Shown: positions 5,101 to 20,789 of the stretch, piece after piece
Layout of the letters: each line of letters begins with the position of its first letter
How positions within the stretch are numbered: the first letter of the stretch is position 1
DNA from: Sphaeroforma arctica JP610
Taxonomy: Eukaryota
Direction: 5' to 3'
Assembly (NCBI RefSeq): GCF_001186125.1
Contig: NW_014040043.1
Span: forward strand, 14,414 to 62,522
Length of the DNA: 48,109 nt
Program-made: the position numbers and the translations under genes
The notes under the pieces: generated by a model
What the model was told of the DNA's origin: nothing
Database searches by the model: none
Seen by the model: the letters and a program-made list of their open reading frames with translations, nothing else

Positions 5101-7294
5101 GGTTATTGGAATCAAAACAAACACAGTGGTGCGCGTTATGGGCAAGCATGAGAGCACCGTGCGGATACTGCGTATAAGTTTGTATCAAGGCAAACCTGTA
5201 CAGGCGGCTGCAACTCTTTCGCTGGTGTGTTGTCGTGTACGGCACGAGCGATGTGTTGAGCTCAATGAGCATTTTGCGCATGCGTTGTTCATCCTTGATA
5301 AACTCCGATTCGTGCAGAGACTGTAAAGTTTTCATGTGGAAATCTCATGATGCTTGTAGGGATGCGTGATCGATATAAGAACAATCAGTGATATTTCACT
5401 TGCATTTGCATAGGCACTTGTACACAGGTTATGTCTCGATTTTGCAACTTCGCGGTAATTGCATAGTTGTGCGACACGAGAGGTATTGTGAGATGGTAAA
5501 ACATGGCTTGACTCTATTCTCACTTGGATTTTGGCTTATCTCTGATTTGTATTTGTAGGAAATGCAAACATCCGAAAATCCGGGTTTGGAGGCGTTGTCG
5601 ACGCATGACCCGACTATGTTTTGCACTGGCTACAACAAAAATAGATTCTTTCTTTTCTCACGAAGAGACAGAGAAGAGACCGAAGGGTATGTGCGAACAC
5701 AGTCAACAGACATGCGTATACATGCAGCATTTTTTTATGGATTGTTTGTCTAGTGTTGCTCACTGTGCGTTCTCTTTGGCCTTTTGTTTGCTAGGACCAC
5801 TCCAGTATGTTTATTCCACTTTCAGATTTGAGCCCTTGCAGAATGCTTTTGGTGATCAGTCATGCGAATGGTAGCTAAGATATTTTTCCCTGCGAGTTAG
5901 ATAAAAATTGATTCAGACAGATATGTCTCCCAATCTTAAGCTACGTTATCAACTCATTTGCTGGTACTGGAACTGTAGCTCAAAAGACTACCTGAAGGTT
6001 TACGAGAAACTTTCCAAATTTACTTTTTGCTGATTTGCACCTTGTTCTATGCTGCGATCCTGTGTGATCTGTGCAGAGAACATGGTCGAGATGTGTACAA
6101 CGAGAAGCCCTCGCGCGAAGACATGATAGCCGCTACAGACAGCCAGGTGAAGGCTTCGTGGCCTTCACAAGCCATCATCCATACATCGTACGGGGATGTA
6201 CACGTATCACTCTTCCCGGACGAATGCCCGAAGACCGTAGAGAACTTTGTAACGCACAGGTATGGCCTCGATCGACTCAATTTGCAATGTATTGTAAGTT
6301 TCTCCTATAACTTGCTTAACAACACTTTGATCCATCTTGGGAGAGATTGAAGTTCACTACTACATTCTTAAAGTTACGAGGAGATTTGTTAGGTGTGGGT
6401 TCGTACTACTATGCGAATTCCAGTATCAGTGGAGATGCTTCACACTCTAAATATCAGTAGGCAAGAAAATACTTATCATGATATGCTTACAATCTGTGTT
6501 GCATCTTTACTCACAGCCGGAACGGCTACTATGACAACCTCATCTTCCACCGAGTTATAAAAAGTTTTATGATTCAAACGGGCGATCCCGAGGGCGACGG
6601 CACAGGCGGCGAATCGATATGGGGTGCTGAATTTGAAGATGAAATCTCACCCAAATTAAGGTAGCTAATGAGTTTGTTGCACTTTCGTGTGCTCATTTAT
6701 CAGTCTTCGTATGCAACTGTGTTCTGTCGTGCCTGTATAGTGCGATTGTGTGCTTAAAATTTCCAGCAGTAGTTGTACTCTTTTTAGTTGCGGCTGTGTA
6801 TGGCTTCCGTTATCCTCAGATGTGTGGAATGTACCCAGGTGTCGTCGCAATGTAGAATGGACGGTAGTTGTTGTCTCTCTGACTTTGCTTGGATTTTGTG
6901 TCCTTAGAAATCTGTTCGGTGCGCTTTTTTGTGTGCTTCGCCATTAGCATTACGTCCACCGACTGAACTCATTACATTCGATCATAACTCGACTACCGGT
7001 ACTACAAAACCATCCTATCCCGCACACATCCTGAAGCCTGTCTAAACTCTCAAATCTCTATAAATCAGGCACGACCGACCATTCACTCTGAGCATGGCAA
7101 ACGCAGGCCCTGGCACTAACGGGAGTCAGTTTTTCATCACTGTGGTACCCACGCCTTGGCTCGATGATAAACATACAGTCTTCGGAAGGGTGACACGTGG
7201 CATGGACATAACTATGAAAATCAGCAATGTGCCGTGTGACAAATTTGCTAGACCAAACGAAACAATAAGGATCCTCAATATCTCATTCGATTAA
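1571..7294 (+). CDS. PPWD1: Peptidylprolyl isomerase domain and WD repeat-containing protein 1 (spliceosomal cyclophilin), 11 exons
   Basis: Phase-compatible GT-AG exons: 1571-1814, 2385-2490, 2893-2993, 3388-3665, 3935-4183, 4506-4619, 5003-5224, 5559-5686, 6077-6259, 6517-6660, 7069-7294. Motifs [76 protein letters not shown]; cyclophilin [15 protein letters not shown] and [34 protein letters not shown]. Confidence 0.96.
2087..2268. repeat. Compound (TA)n/(TG)n microsatellite in PPWD1 intron 1
   Basis: Directly visible. Confidence 0.9.
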
Positions 7295-8412: not shown

Positions 8413-9573
8413 ATGAGAAATACAAACGTGACTATTACGGACCTCATGGGGTACGATTACTTTCCCAATATCAATGTGAGTGCTACGACTAAACAGCCAC
8501 TTGTGCAGCCACCAGCACACTCCTCCTTACATGGGGATACTTACACAGCTGAGTGCGTCAGTGATACACAAAATGGAAGTGTTAAATTAGCGGAGACGGA
8601 TGCATCGTGTCAATCGACGACACAAGCGCCCTTCCAAGACGTAGATGAAGTGATACGCACCATGGATAAAAACTACGGCACTAAGTTCTACGATTGGATA
8701 CGCTCGGAGGCCAATTTGGAGTGTACGGCTATGCATATACGTAAAAACACGCATGATACCGACCTAAAGCGTCTAGCAAACGGTATCCGTTGGATAGTGG
8801 CGAATTGGACCATCGACAATATTGCACACCTGCTTCGTATGGTCACAAAGGGTTGGGTGGCTGAGGAAGAAGCCGAACTCGCGTCGATTGTGTCTAACGA
8901 CTGGCCGTTAAAGCCATATACATCTCGCTTGGTTATGTGCATAACGTATGACATGAATCTGGAGGATATGGTGCGCTATTTCGGAGTGGTAACGGCAACG
9001 TGGTCGACCGACAGTACGCTGGAGCTGGTGACGGAGATTGCCGACAAGGCTGGGTGGAGCCTCGATCAGCTCGGGCACTTCAATATACGGCTGGCGTGGT
9101 ATTTAAAGGAGCATAGAAGCCTGGATGACTACGATTTGAATAGAATCTCACTGTTTTGCACGGGAGCCCTTGATGGCGCAAGTGGCAGTCCACAGCACGG
9201 TCAGGAAATGGCGTGTTCGGCGGCGCTTCCTTCATATGCTCCTGAGGGTGATAATACGATTTGCCTATTGAACGCCAGTAACAACACAGACCACGATACA
9301 GAGATTTCCAACAGTGAAAGTTTTTGTGATGACAACATGGACGTGTGCAACAGTAATAATAGTATTAACGGCTTCGCACATCAAGCGAACAACGGCCACA
9401 ACAACGACTTGTTAATGCCGCAGAGAACACTGCAACACTACACGAGTACGGAGAGCATCATGAATGCTATGGAAAATCAACGGGCAACAGTGGCGGATAC
9501 GGAGAACGCTGGAAAGGACGCCACGTACACAGCTCACGCAGCAACGAAGGACTGTGACATGATGCAGTCATAG
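8413..9573 (+). CDS. Intronless 386-aa hypothetical protein with a central Trp-spaced helical region and low-complexity termini
   Basis: Uninterrupted 1161-nt ORF with an ATG start, GC-richer than its flanks. Central region WIVANWTIDNIAHLLRMVTKGWVAEEEAELASIVSNDW...VVTATWSTDSTLELVTEIADKAGW. Confidence 0.8.
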   Translation: MRNTNVTITDLMGYDYFPNINVSATTKQPLVQPPAHSSLHGDTYTAECVSDTQNGSVKLAETDASCQSTTQAPFQDVDEVIRTMDKNYGTKFYDWIRSEANLECTAMHIRKNTHDTDLKRLANGIRWIVANWTIDNIAHLLRMVTKGWVAEEEAELASIVSNDWPLKPYTSRLVMCITYDMNLEDMVRYFGVVTATWSTDSTLELVTEIADKAGWSLDQLGHFNIRLAWYLKEHRSLDDYDLNRISLFCTGALDGASGSPQHGQEMACSAALPSYAPEGDNTICLLNASNNTDHDTEISNSESFCDDNMDVCNSNNSINGFAHQANNGHNNDLLMPQRTLQHYTSTESIMNAMENQRATVADTENAGKDATYTAHAATKDCDMMQS

Positions 9574-10337: not shown

Positions 10338-12327
10338 TCAAGCATTTATTCGGTCTAGTGTATTGAAGTACATGTACCGACTGAATACGATATACAGTTT
10401 TCTGAACCATACAAGTTGGCTTGTATGCTCGTTCATCGCTGTCTGAGCGGTCCAAACATCAGAGGGAGACCCAACCGCTAGGAAAGAGTGACTGTGGAAT
10501 GAGAATGAGAATGAGAAAATGAGAACGACTCAGTCAGCGTACTATTGATCGAACATACCCTGTACACATACTCCTATTCAAGAGACCGACGCTCAATATA
10601 GCATCAATAAGTACTCAGGGACGATATACTGTAATTTCGGATACTTAGTTAAGATCGAACATCAGATGTTCACGGTAATTAAAAATCGACCAAGCACCAA
10701 TCAAGAGTGGTTTGGTATCCTTTGTACTGCGGGTGTACCCTGATGTAGAAGAAACGATCACGTCCAAGCATCCAGAGTACTTGCGCCATAGTGAGATGGA
10801 TTGAAGCGAGTATGCTTTGATATTAGTATCCAATTTTCCCGTGTCAGCGAGGTGCCTGTCGTGGAAGAGAGTTTTGCGAGGAGAACGAATGAGTTTTGAT
10901 ACATATGCACCTTCATCTTATCCTTTACAAAACACAGAGCACGCCTCTTGTACAATGTGCGTTATCATTATGTAGCGAAACACCGAGCTCAGTGAAGTAT
11001 GTAATCACATATGCCATAAAACAAATAAGGCCAAATGATGTGGCGCATGAGCAGCCTAATACATACCTTACGCCATCATAGCAGGATACATGATTTGGAT
11101 GCTCAGAGACACCCCCAGAATCGAATGTAATGACCTGAGGTCGAAGTGTTGAAATCATGTAGGATACCATCATATTAGTAACCAAAATATGAAATTGTGT
11201 ATGTATCTCGTAATTATGCTAATATATGTACAAGAAAGTATGCACTGGATAATTTAGGCCAAATCTCGTCAATCGAAATTCTCAGGTGAATGATTTACAT
11301 CCACAACAAAGAAAGTATCTCTTTGCGACCAAGCAAATTGTGGATTTGTTCATGACGCATGCCGGAAACTCGCCCGCACGCTTCTCAGATTCCTTACAAT
11401 TCGAATACCATTCTCCTTGATATAGTGTGCTACCACGCTGGCCACCTCTTGAGCGTTCCATTTTTTGGGTCCGTCCGGGAAGCGCCTGCCAATTTGATGA
11501 CGATACAAGTCGGATGTAAAATAAAATCAGCACCTATACAAATCTTTGTGTGCGATCCTTGCATGAAGCAGTTTATAATGCATGTGCGTGCAAACACATC
11601 ATAAATCGGATAATAAATTCTTCAAATAACGAATCCCTTTATCTGTTTGTTTTGAGAAAAAATATTCGTATTGATTGCTCGGGCAAAGTTCTTGTTTTAT
11701 ATAGAGCGCGTCCCAACAGCTATTAACGGTGCGCATTGTCGAGGATATAGCTTACAGTGCTATCTCAATTTGCAACTAGACTATGGAACATGAGATGTAC
11801 TGGATGTCACAATATATAAATGCTATACATACTTGTCATCCAGAGCTTCACAGTCAGTCTGCCTAACACCCAATATTTTACAACTGGCTTCCAACTCTCT
11901 TGAACGTATTGCACCTAGTCCATTATAGTTCCCTGCATAGGCAACGACAATTCAGAAAAGCACAGTGTTTGCGTTGGTTGAATGCCCAAGCAGGAAATCA
12001 GAGTCAAGCACTTCCAGTGTCGCGAATATGTCGCAGACTTGACTGTAATGACCTGAATAAACTATGGCCGGCACAATCAAGTGCAATGGCGAAAGGCATG
12101 CGGGTAAATATCAGTGAGGAATATGAAGCACAATACAAAGATACTGTCTTAAGAGAGGTAGAATTACCTGTAGACAGGCAGAGTATATGGACTGGCCGTC
12201 CTTGTTTCCGCAGTGATATAATAGTGGGGGCGAAGAACATACACTCGTCATCCGGATGTGCGATGACTATGAGGGCCGGTGGTTCCAAGTCCGACTCATT
12301 CTCAGTACTTTGAGCTTTATTACCGTT
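10338..12327 (-). CDS. PIGL: N-acetylglucosaminyl-phosphatidylinositol de-N-acetylase (PIG-L/Gpi12), at least 6 exons; start codon unresolved
   Basis: Exons 12327-12168 (LIVIAHPDDECMFFAPTI..HILCLSTG), 11932-11833 (NYNGLGAIRSRELEASC), 11485-11398 (FPDGPKKW), 11134-11067 (VITFDSGGVSEHPNH), 10855-~10698 (SLQSISLWRKYSG; donor uncertain), 10477-10338 (AMNEHTSQLVWFRKLYIVFSRYMYFNTL*). The HPDDE and HxNH metal-binding motifs are diagnostic. Confidence 0.93.
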
Positions 12328-13050
12328 CTATTCTTATTAAAGGTGGAGCAATAGGCATAGAGATATGAGAAGCATACAATATCTTAATAAATGTGATGGG
12401 CCTGTTTTCACCACCTTATATATGCAATGGAGAGAAAAATTCACATTCATCCTAGGGCCAATGACGGGCTCGAGATCCATACGATAGTTGTAAGAATGCG
12501 AGAATGACTATCTTAGCCTTTGAACGATATTGAAGCCACGATATCAAATAAGATTACAATATATACATACTAAGCAAACGGTAAAACGCATATAACAACA
12601 CGAATAGTAAGAATTTGAACACCCAAATTATATCTATTAAATTTATTCTGGGTTACGCACCTTATATCCTGCTCTTTGTTTTTGCAGTAGTATATACCAT
12701 AATATGAGAGCAGTATACCAGAGTACTAGAACGTAGGCCAACAGTATCGTAACTGGGTCAGTTAATGAATCTTGTATCATATTTATATAGACTACAATAG
12801 TCTGCTTAAATATTGTATTTTTAATATCAGTCGTCTGCTATAAATGCAGACTAAATAAATATATCAAAAGTGCACATAAAAATATATATATTTATATTCA
12901 TGCTGACGTCCATAATTATGCATAGCAACTAGGTCATCGCAGCTTTCATTCCCGCCAAAATTAATCGAACATATCACATCTGCTATGGTGTCTGTTTTTT
13001 TTTTTTTAAATATTTAGTCTTTTTATATTTATGCTTTGTTTTTTGGCAAC

Positions 13051-13219
13051 TATTGCACTGAAAGTGCATTCATAAGAAGCCTATACTTTATGACCTCTTG
13101 CACTCTTCGGCCGCGTACCTCGGTTGCTCCAGCCTACTCCGGACCTAACCTCGGCCCTAAAATATAATTAGGACAATTAGATTTTAGGCGCATAATAATC
13201 TGCATAACAAAACTCAATA
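13051..13219 (+). repeat. 5' LTR (TATTG...CAATA)
   Basis: Aligns end to end with 19653-19824, roughly 85% identical by eye; 5-bp terminal inverted repeat. The 3' boundary may extend a few bases. Confidence 0.88.
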
Positions 13220-13262
13220 AATTTAAGTTCTATGGGCTTTTTTTTAGTTCTATGGGCATTTT

Positions 13263-14310
13263 TAAGTCTTCTAAATAACATTATGAACGACTCATCCTCC
13301 TCAAGCGAAAGCTCCACTTCCAGAATCAAGTGGGCCTGGCTCAAACCCGACGATTCCAACTACGACAAATGGCTCACCCACCTCTCCGTGGCAGCTACCA
13401 TGGACTTCAGCGAGGACCTCGAAAGTGTCCTCTCGTACTAACATGTACGTCGCCACATGCTCGATGTCACCGCTAATACCCCACTAAATCAGCGCACTCC
13501 GCAGACTGACAGAATTCGTCTACATGAACTTGACGAATACATCAAGGAACCCCGGGCTAATGGGACTTACCAATAAGCTCGTCTTCTCCTCCTTCGATCT
13601 CTCAACGATGAAATCATCGACTCCATGTCCGCCATCGAACTCGTCGAAGATCCATGGGCGATGCTGTTTTACCTCAAAGACATGTCCCGCCACATGTCCA
13701 CCAAGTACAACGGTTCTATCACTCTTAATTTCCTCGTCAATTTTCAGCGATCTGACCAGGATACACTCCGCATATGGTGGCATCGCTGTAGTCCTATTCA
13801 ACACGCTACCCAGGAACAAGGCACGGCGTTTAGCAACACATTCATGCAAAGCATCTACCTCTCTGGCCTCAGTGACGCAGATAAAGACATCATCCGCAGC
13901 TTTTTGGTAGCATCCCACGATCGCAACCAAGTAAATACCTCCGTCATCTGTGAACATCTTGAACGTTGGGAACGTGTCACTCCTGACATCAAAGACCTCA
14001 CCGTTGAATAATGCACACCTCGTGCCGCGACATTCTCCAAGACAAAAGGTTTTACGCCAACACCCCAACCAGCAAATTCCGATGCCCTCCTCAACGCTTT
14101 AGTTCAGCGCATGGAGAAGTTGGAAACTGGCCGAGAACGTCCCAAAACACCATGCTTTGTTTGCTACGCCGACAACCATCGCTCTGCTGCATGTAAGAAG
14201 GCTTGTGGAAAATGTGCCAAGACTGGCCACTTGGGCTCCGTCTTGCACTGACACCCAACCTCAAATGTGCCATCTGCAGCCGTACCAGTCATCTAAAAGA
14301 AGTGTACAAT
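13263..14310 (+). pseudogene. gag: copia gag (disrupted) with three tandem CCHC-type zinc knuckles
   Basis: N-terminal LKPDDSNYDKW (copia gag L..NY..W pattern). Knuckles CFVCYADNHRSAAC (14153), CGKCAKTGHLGSV(C, frameshifted) and CAICSRTSHLKEVY (14266). Confidence 0.8.
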
Positions 14311-14398
14311 ATACGTGACAATAAAAAGAACTTCCAGTATTCTCCTGTTCCTAGAATTGTAGGTGTTCACGCATCACGTGTATCTGACATAGCTAGAA

Positions 14399-15040
14399 CT
14401 TCTCATTCACGGCGGTGCTGCAGTTAATCTTATATATACGAAATCTAAGCACCTCCTTAGAAACGTACAACAGGGTAAATTCCCTTTATTTATGGCAGAC
14501 GAACACGAATATATCATCCGAGAAACAAGTACACTCCCGCAAGTAGGTAATGCCTACCTTTGTCCTACTCTTCGGCAACAACTGGCCTCTCAATATCAGC
14601 TCCAGGATGGAGGCTATAGCATCTCATTTCCAGCTAATACCACCACCTGCATACTTCAATATGGTGCCAACTTAACCACCCTACATCGAACTCAAGGGGG
14701 GTACCGTATCTCCTACGCAGACATCACTCGGCTATCCAAGCCACCGGCAATCGCCCAAAATGCTACACCGGCATTCTCCTGTCCTGCTCCGCCAGCTGTA
14801 GGCACACCCCACGCTGTCAGCGGACCATCTCAGCCTGTGTCGACTAGCCCTACCACTCCACCATCGGTACCGACCAACGACGCCACTCCCAACGACAATA
14901 CTCACTTTGCTCCTCCCAAAGTGATGCACTACGACGAATTTCACTGCACACACGGCCACAGAAACCCAATCATCACCCACAAAATGGCAAAGAAGCGTGG
15001 TATTGCCCTCATCGAGAATCCGCCCTTAGGCGTAATGTGA
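14399..15040 (+). pseudogene. Degenerate aspartic protease and N-terminal half of the integrase zinc finger (GAG-pre-integrase)
   Basis: LLIHGGAAVNL at 14399, with His (CAC 14408) where the D[ST]GA Asp is expected; NAYLCPTLRQQLASQYQLQDGGYSISF (copia NV.YVP.L..NL.S..QL...G..V.F); FHCTHGH (H-x4-H, 14942-14959). Confidence 0.7.
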
Positions 15041-15983
15041 CGACATCAGAAAGAACTCAACAAAACGTTGGTCCAACAAAGAGATCGCGGCAATGGCCCG
15101 GCGCCAATACTACTACCAACTGGTTATGGGTAAACCGCCAACCTCAAACCGAGACACAGCCAGACACGACAGTTTCAATCGCTGCTTCGAGTATACACCA
15201 ATCCGGCTCTGTGCTATGATTGTAACGAATACGTACATGTTCACATTGCTCGACTACCGCACCGACGGCTGTTTCTGTCCTGTCAGCCCCGGTAGCCACA
15301 AGTTCACTGCCAGCCACTTTACCTGCATCCAACAACTGATTCGGCGCATCCTGGTAGGCCCGAAACTGCCGCCCATTGGCCCTGACCTCCTTCAGCAATT
15401 ACAGGAGTGCCACGACTTCCACGGTATCTGGACCCTCCACGAACACCTTGGATCTTTTCTCCAGCATGTTGAAGAACCACCGTACCCTCACCCGTCCCTG
15501 ACACATCAACAGATGTTCCCTATACCCCGGCTAATCACGCTGTTGAAGTACTACTTCCAAATATCGGTTCAAACCAAATCATCGCGCTTGTTGGTTCCGA
15601 CTATGATACTTCAGATCCAGGCCAGCCAACACATACCGAATTCATCCGTGGTCTGGTGCGGCATTGGCTTACCCCCATCCTTGCTTCTCGACCGGATTAT
15701 GACGGATAACCTGGTCCTTCTCGGTATTTCGTACTCTGTACTAACCCATTCCGCGGCACTACACGGCGCAGACCCGATCCGTACCACAGAGGTGGGTACT
15801 CTACTTAGTAGGTCAGCAAGCGAATATATGGAACATTCGATAGTAACAGTATTTTGTCAACACCGGCCCGAATTGACTCAGCACATATTTTCCATTGTCG
15901 ACTCACTTGGCCCAAGCTTCAAACGGGAATTTACTGACCACTTCTTCCCATCAATCTTTCCTGAACCACTACAGCGACTATGA
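15036..15983 (+). CDS. Unknown ~300-aa cargo region inside copia pol
   Basis: Longest open frame in the element (ORF 15093-15983, open from at least 15036). No copia motif recognised. Confidence 0.5.
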   Translation, partial: CDDIRKNSTKRWSNKEIAAMARRQYYYQLVMGKPPTSNRDTARHDSFNRCFEYTPIRLCAMIVTNTYMFTLLDYRTDGCFCPVSPGSHKFTASHFTCIQQLIRRILVGPKLPPIGPDLLQQLQECHDFHGIWTLHEHLGSFLQHVEEPPYPHPSLTHQQMFPIPRLITLLKYYFQISVQTKSSRLLVPTMILQIQASQHIPNSSVVWCGIGLPPSLLLDRIMTDNLVLLGISYSVLTHSAALHGADPIRTTEVGTLLSRSASEYMEHSIVTVFCQHRPELTQHIFSIVDSLGPSFKREFTDHFFPSIFPEPLQRL

Positions 15984-16050
15984 GAGCCATACCATATGTT
16001 CATACATTGTATCATACATACTTGCCATTTTTGAAATAAATAATATTATC

Positions 16051-16470
16051 CCTACGGAAGAATGAATGATCAACCGCAAGGATTTGCCCAAGGCATGACT
16101 CACATTGATTTCCAACCTATTGTTGACTTATTTGCCTCCGCCCATACCAACATGCTTCCCAATTTTGCTGGCCCTGGGGGTACTATCGCCTCCTGTAGGA
16201 CTAAGGTGTATCTCCTCAAGCACAAGTGCTATGTCAACTCTCGATGGTCCGACATTCCGGTATTACTCGACACCGTTATCACCACTGGCGCCACCATAGC
16301 GTTGCTCGTCCCTTTTCGTTCTAAGGCCACTTGGTGGCACAAATTATTACCTCCTCCAAACTCAGCCGTACATCATCCACAACAATAAGCACACGTTCCT
16401 GCGTCACGGTACGGACGCCGTTGGCCGAACCATCTTGGACATTCTCTCTCATTGGCAAGATCGGTCCCAT
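16051..16470 (+). pseudogene. Dam-like N6-adenine DNA methyltransferase domain (phage-Dam / DIRS-MT type), frameshifted
   Basis: Reconstructed over three frameshifts: PTEE[W=TGA 16063]MINRKD/FAQGMTHIDFQPIVDLFASAHTNMLPNF...CYVNSRWSDIPVLLDTVITTGATIALLVPFRSKATWWHKL/LQTQPYIIHNNKHTFLRHGTDAVG/PSWTFSL. VDLFAS (16122) fits the SAM-binding motif; YVNSRW (16230-16247) occupies the YxNPP[WF] catalytic position; LLVP..WW follows at the expected spacing. Confidence 0.78.
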
Positions 16471-16552
16471 CAGTTCAGGAGTTGCCCCAGGCGACGATCT
16501 CAAGGCCGCAATTACCTACGCGATGTCAGCTCATCTAAAATTCGCAAAACAC

Positions 16553-17330
16553 ACCTGTCTCGAAGCAAAAATCAAGGCGAAACCTGTCCAGCACTCCAAC
16601 TCTACTAAGGTTTACGGACCCGGCGAACAACTCCGCATGGATTTTCAAGGCCCATTTCCTGCCGACCGTTACGGCAACCGTTACGCTCTCGTTCTATTCG
16701 ACAGCGGTAGCCGGTACGGCCTACATGAGGCCCTCAAGGACAAACAAGACATGCACAACAAGGTTGAAAAATTGAACCTAAAGATAATTAATCCCTGGCA
16801 TGCTAAACAGATTGTCGCCGACGGTGACTCTACATTTGTCTGTCAAAATACTGTCGACATACTCCAGTCTCACAAGATCGACTTCAACACAACGCCACCT
16901 CGCACACAACAAATGAACGGAAAAGTCGAAAGTACCCATCGCGTCATAAGCGAACTTGCTATCATCAATTTACTCCAAGCTGGCATGCCATGGCAACTCT
17001 AGAGCGACGCTCGCCGATGGGCTTGCATGCTCCAAAATGAACCCCTTTCACACAAGGCTGACATCCAACCCCCTAGTGATATATGGTACCAGAAGGAAAT
17101 TAATTTTCCGCCTGACGTCTGATTTGGCTGCCTAAGTCTCTTCAGATTGGAAAGCAAACCCCGCGCTGACAAACATAAATGCGAATCAAAAGCTGGCTAC
17201 GGTGTCCTCCTAGGAAGATTACCTAACTCCACACACGACACATGGCTAATTCAGAGCCTGCGTACACAACGTAGACATTATACACGCAGCGTAAAATTCT
17301 TCCTACTCGAGCGCCCCGAATTGTCCTCCG
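16553..17330 (+). pseudogene. copia integrase (last zinc-finger Cys, DDE core, C-terminal region)
   Basis: TCLEAKIKAKP; EQLRMDFQGPF..YALVLFDSGSRY; IVADGDSTF; TPPRTQQMNGKVESTHR; WQL*SDA (TAG where Trp is expected); FGC; KCESKAGYGVLLG. Confidence 0.92.
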
Positions 17331-17999
17331 ACGGTCGACGCGCAACACGCTCTAGTACCCCATGTACTTATACTATCTCAAAGGATTGGATGACACAGGA
17401 GGCACCAATATCCGTTGCCATCCCATTTGTCCCCACTACACCGCCACAAGTTGCCACCCCACCAAACTCTTCCTCTTCCCCGGTATCCTCACCCATCACC
17501 GCTCCTCTCCAGCAGACACCACCTCTCCCCACAGCCTCTCCCTCACCGAATAAGCGCGCAACTTTTCGCCCCGGCAACGATCTCGGTTTTGATAGCAACT
17601 TGACGATGGACACTGAAAATACATAGACGACCTCAGCTCCAACTCTAGTTCGGATTTTGTATCTATACATGACTATCGCAAAGCCCTCCCCATACGTGTA
17701 GCACCGGATCCACTCTTACAGTCGCCTACCACCTCGACTCTCGATATATCCCCAGCTCACACAACCCTCACTGACCGCGCTCGCACAACCACCACATAAT
17801 CCCGTATTCACGTGGATTCCGATGAATCTCTCCTCGACGTTGTTGCCGAATGTGGCCCCAACCAATCCACATTGCCTAAGGGTCCCTCCTCACTCTCTGA
17901 GCACTCAGCTATCGCGCAGGCTCTCATACCTCACGTGCTAGCGGTGCAACCCTCGCAACGGCACGAGATTGCCCTGTTCGAGACAATGTCTCTTCTGGA

Positions 18000-19632
18000 C
18001 CCTACGGTGCCGAAGAGCATCGCCAAGGCGCAAGCTGCTCCTGACTGGCCCCTGTGGAAGGAGGCCATAGACATCGAACATAAGGCACAGATTAGAAACG
18101 AACTCGCGGATATCGTCCCTATTTCGGATGTTCCAAAGGATGCAAAAAATAATACATTCCAAGTATGTCCTGGCACGTAAACACGATGAAAAAGGAAACC
18201 TCACAATTTTTAAAGCCCGTATGGTCGCACGAGGCGACCAACAGGAACAAGGTGACTCTTATTACGAAACTTACGCCCCCGCCGCCTCATCTGTCACTCT
18301 CAGGGCATTCTTAGCGCGCGCAGCATTTGAGAAATATCAGGTACATCACTTTGATATATCCACCGCTTACTTATACGCAGAACTCAATACAATTGTCTAC
18401 ATGCACCCTCCTAAGGGTACAGTAGAACTCGGTTTCTGTCCTAAGAACACAGTCCTAAAACTCAAACGAAGATTATACGGCCTTAGACAATCTGGCCGAT
18501 TGTGGAACTTCGATATTGCCGACAAACTCAACAACTAGGTTTTAAACAGACGGAAGCTGACAAATGTATATGGACACACACCACGAAGGACATCATCGTA
18601 GTACTTTATGTCGACGAAATTTGCCCTGCAATCCCCCCCGGTATATCACATGCAAAGTGGCTATACGACAAACCCGGCGCTCACTTTAAACTCAAGGATT
18701 TAGGACCTGCAAAACATCTCGTTGGGCTAAAAATCACACAGCACAAAGATGGCAGCATATCCATCGGGCAACAAGCATACATAGAAAAAATGCTAGCCAA
18801 GTTCAACCTAGCTGATCGTCCCCTCAAGTTTATACCAGGCAACCCGAACAAGCACCTATCTGCTCTCACAGGTGACTCGTGCACCGAGAAACACCGTTCA
18901 CTACTGGGCGCACTTGGTTTTGCTTCAACATGACCAGAGTCGACATCTTGTGCACACTCAACCAATTGGCATCATACAGCAACCAACCCCTCATAGAGCA
19001 CTGGACTGCTTTACAACACATACTCCTCTATCTAGCACGTACCAAAGACTTCGTCCTCACATACCGTCCAAATTCGACCAACAGAACAGTCGACACAGCT
19101 CTCGAAGCATTCTCAGATTCCGACTGGGGAAATTGCCTTACCACTCGCCGATCACAGTCGGGCTCGCTCATTACATTTAACGGCACTCCCATCCCCCTGG
19201 CGATCCGCAAAGCAACAAATCTGTGCAGATAGTAGCGGTGAGGCTGAATACGTAGCTGCAGCAGAAACAGCACAGAATTTGGCATGGATCCGTAACATCC
19301 TTGAATCATTCGGATACACATTTTCCATTCCTACCAAATACTCTATTGACAATCAATCCGCCATCAAAATAGCATTAGGCACAGGTACCCCTAAAGGGTT
19401 GAAACACGTCGAGATTAAGCACCACTACATCCGAAAATGTGCACAAGACGGCAAAATCGATCTTCAATACGTCCACACTCATGCCAATCTAGCGGATTTA
19501 CTCACAAAAAGCTTACCTCGCCCAAAGCACGAGCATTTCTGCGAACAACTCCTCACAGCTTCTGTAGATTATTTCCGTCGTACACCAGTCGCAGGCTACT
19601 TCCTTCAATGCTCACTCCCAAGAAGCACATAA
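18000..19632 (+). pseudogene. copia reverse transcriptase and RNase H (several frameshifts and stops)
   Basis: WKEAIDIE; KARMVARGDQQEQGDSYYETYAP; HFDISTAYLYAEL; LKRRLYGLRQSGRLW; LYVDE (for YVDD); RH motifs FSDSDWG..RRSQSG, SSGEAEYVAA, DNQSAI, KHVEIKHHYIR, NLADLLTKSL. Confidence 0.95.
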
Positions 19633-19643
19633 GGCTTGGCTTC

Positions 19644-19824
19644 AAGGGGGGGTATTGCACTGAAAGTGCACTCCTAAGTAGCCTATGCTTTATGGCCTTC
19701 TTGCGCTCTTCGGCCACGTGCCTCGGCTACTCCAGCCTGCTCCGATCCTAACCTCGGTCCTAAAATACAATTAGGTCAATTAGATTTTAGGTGCATATAA
19801 ATATGTACAACACAAAACTCAATA
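19644..19824 (+). repeat. Polypurine tract (AAGGGGGGG, 19644-19652) and 3' LTR (19653-19824)
   Basis: The purine run directly abuts TATTG; the LTR ends in CAATA. Confidence 0.9.
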
Positions 19825-20789
19825 AATTGGTTATTCAGTTAATATCAATTTATTAGGCTCTATAGAAACCCATAAAATATTTAGGTCTCTACATAGTGAT
19901 TCTAGACATATATGTTTATTTGATTGGGGTTTAAGGAAAGCGGACGTAACAGGCTGTAGTAATGCAGGCAGTTTTACAAGGCAGTCGTAATGCAAGAAGT
20001 CTTAAGCATTCTCATGGTTTATTGTGCACATACACAAGAGTCGTCTAGCCTCATTTTTCATGACTTATAAGCTCGAACCTGACTTTATTTTGGATGCGTC
20101 TACTATATTTCAGCCCGAACTATTGTACCAACAATTGTCCTTTCCAGTGACTGCCGGATGTATACACGGAAGAGAAAACTCCATTCGATTTGGAGGAAAC
20201 GGTTTACTCGGGGTTTTATCAGTTTGTAGATTGGCAATTTTGTTTTGTTTTGTTTGGAACCTTCAGGATTCAACTTTCGAGTCGCTGATCTTCGTATGTA
20301 TGGATGAGGAGTCGTCGCCTGTCACTGGTCCTCAAAATTGACGGGCTAACCTCGTAAATGATAGACTTTCCCTTTCGTAATCCCGCTGAGATGTAGTTAC
20401 TAGATACTGTATGTATTTATATGAAATAAAAATACATAAAAGTCAACAGTTCATTATTGACTAATTTTTTTCCTGGACGCGGAAATCTATTTCTCACATC
20501 TGCTCCGACTCCATAGTGCCATATGAGCCGAACTCAATTAATCCATCAACCACCACAAAGCTAGTGGGTTGAGTGCGTGTGTTCGTAGTCCAATCCTTGA
20601 ACTGAAGTCTACACTGTAACGGGTGACTCTTCAATTTTGAAACTTTCCCTATGCCATCTATCTCCTGTGCCAGAAAACAAAAACAATAAAACACACACTT
20701 AAAGTTGAATAGTCTCCGGTACATGTTCGGGCTATTCTATTAAATATATATTGCTCGTTTCTCAAAAATGTAGTGAATAACCATAATTC

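What the first reader, a model, noticed from the sequence alone, without database searches (positions are those of the whole stretch)
16051..16470. Ty1/copia retrotransposon carrying a Dam-like N6-adenine DNA methyltransferase domain fused to its integrase
Seen: inside a copia pol, the ordered motifs E[W]MIN..F, PIVDLFAS..N, CYVNSRW, LLVP..ATWW, QPYII...TFLR.G...G and PSWTF. The last motif lies in the same open frame (16331-17002) as the integrase DDE core. Established: this motif order matches the phage-Dam-like MT domain typical of DIRS1-like tyrosine-recombinase retrotransposons, where it follows RT/RH; it is not part of the standard copia gag-PR-INT-RT-RH set. Inference: a copia lineage captured an adenine MTase into its polyprotein, and could mark its own cDNA or insertion site, or read adenine methylation for targeting. 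This copy is dead (TGA at the Trp, three frameshifts). YVNSRW could derive from Y[AV]NPPW by 2-3 substitutions, or the domain may be non-catalytic.
Basis: partly seen in the sequence, partly recalled or inferred. Interest (0 to 1): 0.9.

Follow-up and report, generated by a model that had tools for sequence, protein, structure and literature searches.

The report
Methylase domain inside a copia integrase
A dead copy of a copia-type jumping gene carries an adenine-methyltransferase-like domain, shared with related copies and apparently wedged into the zinc finger of its integrase, which likely let active ancestors put the host's "active gene" adenine mark on their own new DNA copies.

Summary
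A decayed Ty1/copia element (LTRs 13051/19653, integrase before RVT_2) carries a Dam/DIRS-type N6-adenine-methyltransferase domain at 16057-16480, broken by one stop and three frameshifts.

It is not a one-off nested piece. A Sphaeroforma arctica protein (SARC_09551) has protease-HH-Dam-CxxC in one frame, about 42% identical in protease and Dam alike. A closer sister contig has the segment at the same place. The relative's model has an amino-methyltransferase fold (PCIF1 Z 10.8).

Two points are new. The domain sits between the His and Cys halves of the integrase zinc finger. The 1,019 bp just upstream is an unrelated high-copy insertion.

A 2026 preprint describes Dam-bearing LTR elements, all Ty3/gypsy-like, and never mentions copia. 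The scan's earlier notes show gypsy+Dam and copia+cytosine-methyltransferase on other DNA, but not this pairing.

Function is untested. Both readable copies depart from NPPW (NSRW, NPIW), no intact copy was seen, and the preprint's enzyme assay was negative. Verdict: new variant of a known kind; architecture about 0.9, self-methylation about 0.45.

The parts
13051..13222 (+). 5' LTR (alignable core; exact 3' end, primer site and target duplication not resolved)
   Evidence: direct repeat of 19653-19827, 172 paired columns, 87% identical, K2P 0.14
13284..14296 (+). gag with a zinc-knuckle-like Cys/His region, broken by stops and frameshifts
   Evidence: translation; no Pfam hit; the label rests on position and recalled motifs; two sister contigs match parts of it at about 81-84%
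14393..14728 (+). protease region (the usual catalytic Asp reads His in this copy)
   Evidence: 42% identical to the N-terminus of P0001; label from position and recalled motif, no Pfam hit
14927..15035 (+). His half of the integrase zinc finger, H-x4-H at 14942-14959, with the following helix
   Evidence: 47% identical to P0001 149-181; same H-x3-G-H pattern as three Dam-less copia records; motif-level match only, no significant BLAST or Pfam gag_pre-integrs hit
15036..16054 (+). unrelated, very abundant repeat inserted into the element; 5'-truncated, fixed 3' end, 315-codon open frame of unknown family
   Evidence: summed contig depth hundreds to thousands of times the flanks in 4 of 4 runs, many loose ends at 16054, and a sister contig skips it; no Pfam, NCBIfam, PHROG or Atlas hit
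16057..16480 (+). Dam/DIRS-type N6-adenine-methyltransferase-fold domain; DLFA at 16125, NSRW at 16236-16247; one stop and three frameshifts
   Evidence: fold shown on the relative P0001
16481..16600 (+). linker helix and Cys half of the zinc finger; only one Cys here (16556), a full CxxC in P0001
   Evidence: 53% identical to P0001 328-371; P0001's CxxC-xEGKM aligns with the CxxC of Dam-less copia (E 0.013-0.025)
16616..17002 (+). DDE integrase core, in one open frame with the end of the Dam domain
   Evidence: Pfam rve E 3.8e-5; BLASTP to copia integrases E 1e-7 to 8e-4
18143..18837 (+). copia-type reverse transcriptase, in two frameshifted pieces
   Evidence: Pfam RVT_2 E 3.2e-26 and 7.9e-12, both above the cut-off
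19100..19560 (+). RNase H region (approximate), frameshifted
   Evidence: recalled copia RNase H motifs seen; no Pfam hit
19643..19652 (+). polypurine tract directly before the 3' LTR
   Evidence: sequence
19653..19827 (+). 3' LTR (alignable core)

Best explanation
This is a dead copy of a small Ty1/copia family whose polyprotein carries a Dam/DIRS-type adenine-methyltransferase domain, apparently inserted between the histidine and cysteine halves of the integrase zinc finger, where in active ancestors it likely methylated adenines on the element's own new DNA. Shown: the element is copia; the domain has the Dam/DIRS sequence profile; a relative's model has the amino-methyltransferase fold; the domain is shared with a distant and a close relative at the same position. 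Inferred from motif spacing: it splits the HHCC finger, so the protease could not cut it out without breaking the finger, and it would travel as part of integrase in the particle and the integration complex. Inferred from the preprint's model, untested here: it would use SAM to put 6mA on the cDNA or the RNA:DNA intermediate; host AMT1 would then maintain the mark after integration, and the new copy would start in transcription-friendly chromatin. Confidence is about 0.9 for the architecture and about 0.45 for this mechanism.
For: Heritable fusion: P0001 (SARC_09551, Sphaeroforma arctica) runs protease-HH-Dam-CxxC in one frame and maps colinearly on the window. Identity is 42% in protease, 47% in the HH part, 41.5% in Dam and 53% in linker+CC, so the domain diverged along with its neighbours. 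A 2,948-base contig at single-copy depth in 2 of the 4 runs laid (X6, X8) matches gag, protease, 16129-16230 (20 differences in 102) and integrase, skips the high-copy insert, and has 359 letters where the window has 358 between Dam and integrase; by my arithmetic on those coordinates that keeps both in one frame. Window and P0001 form a clade, 100/100. Position: P0001 has H155-x4-H160-x26-C187, then the domain, then C355-x2-C358-xEGKM; two Dam-less copia records have H-x4-H-x25-CxxC-xEGKM and a third H-x4-H-x32-CxxC. Fold: Atlas TM 0.82-0.88 to clusters that include RT/RNaseH/Dam proteins; AlphaFold pLDDT above 90 over residues 191-290; PCIF1 E 2.6e-4 and Z 10.8, rmsd 2.9 over 135 residues, T4 Dam Z 8.6. 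Catalysis: P0001 keeps DLFA, the Asp found in 87% of the family ahead of the catalytic strand, and N-P-x-W despite a stem branch of 2.2 changes per column. Context: S. arctica has gene-associated 6mA, and its gypsy DAM-LTR copies are more often methylated and more expressed than other LTRs (preprint 10.64898/2026.05.21.726589).
Against: Neither readable copy has NPP: the second Pro, 99% conserved in 69 family rows, is Arg here and Ile in P0001; here the first Pro is Ser and the 87% Asp is absent. Identity between window and P0001 is not enriched at family-conserved columns (16 of 38 against 32 of 84, p 0.41). The window has one Cys where CxxC is expected. The His-half assignment is by motif and spacing, with no significant alignment or Pfam hit. 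No intact copy was seen: the close sister has a net frameshift between protease and Dam (388 letters, arithmetic), and P0001 ends soon after CxxC, so its integrase core and RT are not visible. The preprint found no 6mA gain from eukaryotic DAMs in dam-minus E. coli. Iyer et al. judged DIRS methyltransferase domains likely inactive (PMC4738411). The host is inferred, not shown.
Confidence: 0.45

Rival explanations
1. Non-catalytic reader or tether: the same heritable fusion, but the domain only binds adenine-containing or 6mA-marked nucleic acid and helps integrase hold its cDNA or choose a target site, as proposed for the methyl-CpG-binding domain of CopiaMBD.
For: The catalytic tetrad is altered in 2 of 2 readable copies (NSRW, NPIW). 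No enrichment at family-conserved columns. Long stem branch. The position inside integrase suits targeting. Negative heterologous assay and the inactive-domain view of PMC4738411.
Against: P0001 keeps the SAM-side residues and the catalytic Asn and aromatic residue. The window's LTRs imply about 7% decay per copy since insertion, so a single P-to-S change has about a 14% chance of being mere decay.
Confidence: 0.27
2. RNA writer: the domain is active, but its substrate is the element's RNA (genome, cap region or primer) inside the particle, in the manner of PCIF1.
For: The nearest solved structures are RNA adenine methyltransferases (PCIF1, DIMT1/KsgA, Erm, METTL5), ranked above T4 and E. coli Dam. 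PMC4738411 places DIRS domains in the PCIF1 clade. The preprint notes the lack of part of the Dam target-recognition region.
Against: The Z-scores lie within about 2 units, and a shared fold shows no substrate. Embedding in integrase points to DNA. The preprint's 6mA enrichment is on DNA.
Confidence: 0.13
3. Trapped relic: an old insertion of a Dam domain into the zinc finger was tolerated and kept only because deleting it cleanly is hard; it has no function of its own.
For: Degenerate motifs and no enrichment at conserved columns. The family is small and no relative was found outside this genus.
Against: The domain's length, secondary-structure pattern and DLFA/N/W residues persist in two lineages only about 42% alike, at the same identity as the protease, while the Pro-rich linker beside it differs in length by about 24 residues.
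Confidence: 0.1
4. One-off nested fragment of a DIRS or gypsy element in this copy only.
For: A nested insertion does lie right beside the domain (15036-16054).
Against: That insertion ends at 16054, before the domain, and the domain's depth is single-copy-like. Two other copies carry the domain at the same place. The neighbours are a copia HH motif and CxxC, not RNase H or an integrase tail.
Confidence: 0.05

Closest known systems
DAM-LTR retrotransposons (Fernandez-Moreno et al., bioRxiv 10.64898/2026.05.21.726589; whole main text read, figures and supplements not seen)
   Same: An LTR retrotransposon with a DIRS-type Dam domain in pol; one of the five lineages is ichthyosporean and includes Sphaeroforma arctica; the proposed 6mA-seeding model carries over.
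   Different: All described lineages are Ty3/gypsy-like and were classified with RVT_1; the text has 0 occurrences of copia, Ty1, RVT2 or PF07727. Here the carrier is copia (RVT_2, integrase before RT) and the domain lies within the integrase zinc finger. Gypsy proteins fetched here hold it after protease, between RNase H and integrase, or after the integrase tail. NPP is not intact.
DIRS1-group tyrosine-recombinase retrotransposons with the MT (Dam, PF05869) domain (PMC3783388, passages read)
   Same: Same domain family; a profile of 54 DIRS-like domains scores the read-through 48.9 bits.
   Different: In DIRS it follows RT-RNase H, and the element has a tyrosine recombinase and no protease or DDE integrase. 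Here it sits between protease and a DDE integrase core.
CopiaMBD (de Mendoza et al. 2019, PMC6673714; passages and the first part of Results read)
   Same: A copia family that captured a DNA-methylation-related domain into its ORF and kept it under selection.
   Different: MBD is a 5mC reader of host origin in arthropods; this is an adenine-methyltransferase fold of retroelement origin in a probable ichthyosporean.
PCIF1/CAPAM cap adenosine N6-methyltransferase
   Same: Best solved-structure match to the relative's model (E 2.6e-4; Z 10.8).
   Different: A cellular RNA enzyme, 13-14% identical, with extra domains; the match shows fold, not substrate.
Retrotransposon-borne cytosine methyltransferases (de Mendoza et al. 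2018, PMC5890265; passages read)
   Same: Methyltransferase captured into a retrotransposon ORF, with proposed cDNA self-marking.
   Different: C5-cytosine enzymes in LINE, DIRS and gypsy carriers; a different enzyme class.

Membership tests
Ty1/copia LTR retrotransposon | Two direct LTRs with a polypurine tract before the 3' LTR | tested here: met
Ty1/copia LTR retrotransposon | Integrase upstream of reverse transcriptase | tested here: met
   rve at 16616-16903, RVT_2 at 18143-18837
Ty1/copia LTR retrotransposon | Reverse transcriptase of the RVT_2 family | tested here: met
   E 3.2e-26 and 7.9e-12, above the Pfam cut-off
Ty1/copia LTR retrotransposon | HHCC zinc finger ahead of the DDE core | tested here: inconclusive
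   Both halves are present by motif in P0001 but about 195 residues apart; the window has one Cys; no gag_pre-integrs hit
Ty1/copia LTR retrotransposon | TG...CA termini, primer-binding site, target-site duplication | tested here: inconclusive
   LTR similarity begins TATTG; the 3' ends align poorly; no duplication recognised
Eukaryotic retrotransposon Dam (DIRS-MT, PF05869-like) domain | Profile match to the family | tested here: met
   Custom profiles score 48.9-56.4 bits against a shuffle maximum of 5.8. Pfam Dam: P0001 E 1.2e-5, 25.5 bits, under the 28.1 cut-off; window frame no hit
Eukaryotic retrotransposon Dam (DIRS-MT, PF05869-like) domain | Rossmann-type amino-methyltransferase fold | tested here: met
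   on the relative P0001, residues 185-329; the window's own copy was not folded
Eukaryotic retrotransposon Dam (DIRS-MT, PF05869-like) domain | DLFA motif (SAM side; role recalled) | tested here: met
   DLFA in both copies
Eukaryotic retrotransposon Dam (DIRS-MT, PF05869-like) domain | Asn-Pro-Pro catalytic triplet | tested here: not met
   NSRW (window) and NPIW (P0001), each 1 of 74 rows; NPPW 41 and FPPF 15 of 74. This lowers 'active Dam', not homology.
Eukaryotic retrotransposon Dam (DIRS-MT, PF05869-like) domain | Adenine methyl transfer | not testable with these tools
   needs an assay; also unshown for the family
DAM-LTR lineages of the 2026 preprint | Ty3/gypsy-like organisation with RVT_1 | tested here: not met
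   RVT_2 and copia order, so it is not filed in those lineages
DAM-LTR lineages of the 2026 preprint | Dam domain grouping with the ichthyosporean DAM-LTR clade | not tested
   The preprint's sequences were not at hand; in my tree the copia pair stands on its own long stem between gypsy-borne and DIRS-like rows
DAM-LTR lineages of the 2026 preprint | Host with AMT1-type 6mA, and 6mA excess over copies | not testable with these tools
   no genome held; host inferred from the nearest named relative
DIRS element (nested fragment) | MT domain preceded by RT-RNase H, with a tyrosine recombinase | tested here: not met
   The flanks are copia HH and CxxC/DDE parts; Pfam found no RVT_1 or recombinase in the frames scanned

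The most novel reading that the evidence does not exclude
The first Ty1/copia retrotransposon with its own adenine methyltransferase, built into the integrase zinc finger so that it cannot be cut away: an integrase that writes the host's active-chromatin mark (6mA) onto the cDNA it is about to insert, acquired independently of the gypsy DAM-LTRs living in the same genome.
Probability: 0.38. Interest if true: 0.8.

Novelty: new variant of a known kind. Interest (0 to 1): 0.57.

Why it matters
Dam capture by LTR elements was reported only in May 2026 and, in the text I read, only for Ty3/gypsy-like carriers, with a pipeline described around RVT_1. A copia case would be a further independent capture, in the other main LTR superfamily and probably in the same host, which strengthens the argument that 6mA-marking genomes select for this cargo. 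The position is informative in itself. A domain inside the integrase zinc finger is tied to the integration complex, which narrows where and when it can act and shows that this finger tolerates an insert of about 170 residues. The claim is testable now: nanopore 6mA data for S. arctica exist (GSE331346, named in the preprint), and these copia copies may have been counted among its 'Dam-lacking' controls or its orphan Dam sequences. The limits are that the family is small and decayed, and that no enzyme activity is shown for any retrotransposon Dam.

Tried and rejected
No genome is held for the window, so copies could not be counted or assembled.

Searches that found nothing useful:
- The word-index search with the window frame found 0 of 178 candidates. 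P0001 as query found only itself among 3,690 candidates.
- The five-sequence profile found 67 longer proteins among 7,996 scored candidates; 16 of 67 carry a precomputed PF05869 and 0 of 67 carry RVT_2 or gag_pre-integrs. That is weak evidence of rarity.
- Scans of viral contigs and metagenome contigs confirmed no locus; they find close relatives only.
- A sequence search of the PDB gave no methyltransferase (26 matches, best E 0.12), and nothing useful for the integrase frame.
- NCBIfam and PHROGs gave only weak hits for P0001 (TIGR01712 E 0.036; phrog_111 E 0.0021) and none for the window frame.
- The Atlas feature scores (0.80-0.81) are leads only; I relied on its structure rows.
- The single-sequence fold was useless (pLDDT 30.7).
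- No RNA holder was listed.

Questions left open:
- The catalytic motif of the close sister contig was not read, so whether NSRW is private to this copy remains open.
- The tree did not name a donor: the copia pair sits on a long stem and the root is only a midpoint (3 near-duplicates and 1 short row left out of 73 proteins; DIRS and gypsy labels assigned by me from flanking domains).
- The test for selection at family-conserved columns was not significant.

Rejected: reading the 315-codon frame at 15036-15983 as part of the copia polyprotein.

Paper searches for a copia with Dam: searches returned 0 papers; searches listed none by title or abstract start. The library lacks most subscription papers, and the preprint's supplements were not seen.

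Full report
**1. The element.** Direct repeats at 13051 and 19653 align over 172 columns at 87% identity (K2P 0.14), with a purine run directly before the second. Between them, an integrase core (Pfam rve, E 3.8e-5, below the cut-off) precedes two RVT_2 pieces (E 3.2e-26 and 7.9e-12). That is the Ty1/copia order. The gag, protease and RNase H labels rest on position and recalled motifs; Pfam gave no hit for them. The copy is dead, with stops and frameshifts in every region. No genome is held. The only named close relative is from the ichthyosporean Sphaeroforma arctica, so I take the host to be that species or a close one; this is inferred.

**2. The observation.** Pfam does not see the domain in the window. 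A full HMMER pass over 1.84 billion representatives returned 4 proteins. P0001 came first (E 6.6e-9) and hits Pfam Dam at E 1.2e-5, 25.5 bits against a cut-off of 28.1. Two others hit Dam more weakly and the fourth not at all, but all three have NPPW. A profile of 69 such domains without P0001 or the window scores the unbroken frame 41.4 bits and the read-through 56.4 bits, against a maximum of 5.8 for 500 shuffles; separate gypsy (13 rows) and DIRS-like (54 rows) profiles give 53.2 and 48.9. The members were found with queries that included these sequences, so the test is not fully independent, but 16 of the 67 hits carry PF05869 on record.

**3. The neighbouring kilobase is something else.** Laying contigs from 4 runs on 12500-20400 shows depth rising from about 140 to 59,000-241,000 (run X6) and from about 38 to 19,000-132,000 (X8) over 14876-16195, with dozens of loose ends at 16054 and a shared upstream continuation at 15036. 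Summed depth is no copy number, but the contrast is plain: 15036-16054 is the 3' end of an abundant repeat. Without it, the frame holding H-x4-H at 14942-14959 runs straight into E-E-stop-M-I-N.

**4. The domain belongs to the family.** P0001 (SARC_09551, 394 aa) has protease region, linker, H-x4-H, Dam and CxxC in one frame and maps colinearly on the window. Identities are 42% (protease), 47% (HH), 41.5% (Dam) and 53% (linker+CC), so the domain has diverged in step with its neighbours. A second, closer relative is a 2,948-base contig at single-copy depth, seen in runs X6 and X8 (2 of 4 laid). It matches 13614-14359, 14529-14772, 16129-16230 and 16589-16753 at about 80-84%, and skips from 15009 to 16129. 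My arithmetic on its coordinates: 360 letters from 16230 to 16589 keep Dam and integrase in one frame, whereas 388 letters from 14772 to 16129 imply a frameshift upstream, so that copy is probably broken too. Its catalytic motif lies just outside the aligned piece and was not read. In a 70-row tree the window and P0001 are sisters (100/100) on a stem of 2.2 changes per column, between gypsy-borne and DIRS-like rows; the donor is unresolved.

**5. Where it sits.** Three plasmid-labelled records that hold ordinary copia frames serve as Dam-less comparators; the Dam profile scores them at most 1.1 bits. Two read H-x4-H-x25-CxxC-xEGKM and one H-x4-H-x32-CxxC. P0001 reads H155-x4-H160-x26-C187, then the Dam domain and a linker, then C355-x2-C358-xEGKM, which aligns with the comparators' CxxC (E 0.013-0.025). 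The insert therefore appears to have landed at the cysteine pair and leaves about 195 residues between the His pair and the complete Cys pair. The His half is assigned by motif and spacing only, and the window keeps one Cys. If the assignment is right, the domain cannot be cut out without breaking the finger and would be a permanent part of integrase (inference). The gypsy proteins fetched here hold the domain after protease, between RNase H and integrase, or after the integrase tail.

**6. Fold and active site.** The Atlas model of P0001 183-330 matches 10 listed clusters at TM 0.82-0.88, several of them RT/RNaseH/Dam proteins. A 49-row AlphaFold model has pLDDT above 90 over residues 191-290. 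Foldseek ranks PCIF1 first (E 2.6e-4), then KsgA/Erm. The wide structural search gives PCIF1 Z 10.8 (rmsd 2.9, 135 residues), with T4 Dam at 8.6 and E. coli Dam at 8.5. Both copies keep DLFA, Asn and Trp, but the tetrad is NPIW in P0001 and NSRW here, each unique among 74 rows, of which 41 are NPPW. Both lack the second Pro (99% conserved); the window also lacks the first Pro and an Asp that is 87% conserved. With about 7% decay per copy since insertion, loss of one Pro by chance is about 14% likely and loss of both about 2%, so the active ancestor probably already departed from NPP at the second position. Identity between the two copies is not enriched at family-conserved columns (16 of 38 against 32 of 84; p 0.41), which counts against strong selection for canonical catalysis.

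**7. Mechanism.** I commit, at about 0.45, to a writer: the integrase-bound domain would methylate adenines on the cDNA or RNA:DNA intermediate, and host AMT1 would maintain the mark after insertion. The reasons are that SAM-side and catalytic residues survive a very long branch in P0001, and that the preprint finds more 6mA and more expression over gypsy DAM-LTRs in S. arctica. Against it stand the altered tetrads, the preprint's negative assay in E. coli and the view in PMC4738411 that DIRS domains are inactive PCIF1 relatives. Rivals: non-catalytic reader or tether (0.27), RNA writer (0.13), trapped relic (0.10), one-off nested fragment (0.05).

**8. What is known.** DIRS elements carry this domain after RT-RNase H (PMC3783388, passages). 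The preprint 10.64898/2026.05.21.726589 (whole main text; figures and supplements not seen) claims the first Dam domains in non-DIRS LTR elements, defines five lineages, calls the ichthyosporean one Ty3/gypsy-like, and classifies by RVT_1. Copia, Ty1, RVT2 and PF07727 occur 0 times in its text. Its unseen supplements could still list SARC_09551 as an orphan Dam. Copia elements have captured an MBD (PMC6673714, passages and first part of Results). PMC5890265 (passages) covers cytosine methyltransferases in other carriers, and PMC3248453 (passages) gave nothing on Dam. Searches for copia with Dam returned 0 papers, and six wider searches listed none. The scan's own notes show gypsy+Dam, copia+C5-methyltransferase and one LINE+Dam, but no copia+Dam by words, sequence or place. 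Those notes are unchecked leads.

**9. Verdict.** A real, heritable Dam-type domain in a copia family, in an unusual place within integrase. It is a new variant of a recently described kind. Interest is 0.57: a specialist would be surprised by the carrier and the position, and existing 6mA data can test it, but only decayed copies were seen and function is unproven.

Noticed in passing
window 15036-16054: 3' end of a very abundant repeat with a fixed 3' terminus, an AT-rich tail and a 315-codon open frame holding a Cys/His cluster; no hit in Pfam, NCBIfam, PHROGs, the Atlas or viral contigs. It looks like a 5'-truncated non-LTR retroelement, but the class is not shown.
   Followed up: partly
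window 13280-14043: A further contig (2,888 bases, single-copy depth, about 81% alike over gag) points to another relative of this copia family; whether it carries the Dam domain is unknown.
   Followed up: no
L001, L002, L003 (NZ_CP115302.1, NC_015657.1, NZ_CP115454.1): Three records filed as actinomycete plasmids consist largely of Ty1/copia polyprotein frames (RVT_2 E 1e-73, gag_pre-integrs and rve for L001); they are probably eukaryotic contaminants in those assemblies.
   Followed up: partly
proteins P0003, P0007-P0018, P0059: Environmental Ty3/gypsy proteins hold the Dam domain in at least three positions (after protease, between RNase H and integrase, after the integrase tail), mostly with intact NPPW and often below Pfam's cut-off.
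   Followed up: partly
window 12004-12327 (-) and 5979-6350 (+): Host gene pieces: a PIG-L-type de-N-acetylase lies about 0.7 kb from the 5' LTR, pointing away from it, and a cyclophilin domain lies further left.
   Followed up: no
window 8413-9573 (+): A single-exon 386-aa ORF with no Pfam hit and a cluster of one.
   Followed up: no
window 27372-27980 and 40965-47990: A 300-nt tandem duplication (95% alike) and several minisatellite arrays (periods 12, 29, 36, 51, 128-130 and 59/70 nt).
   Followed up: no
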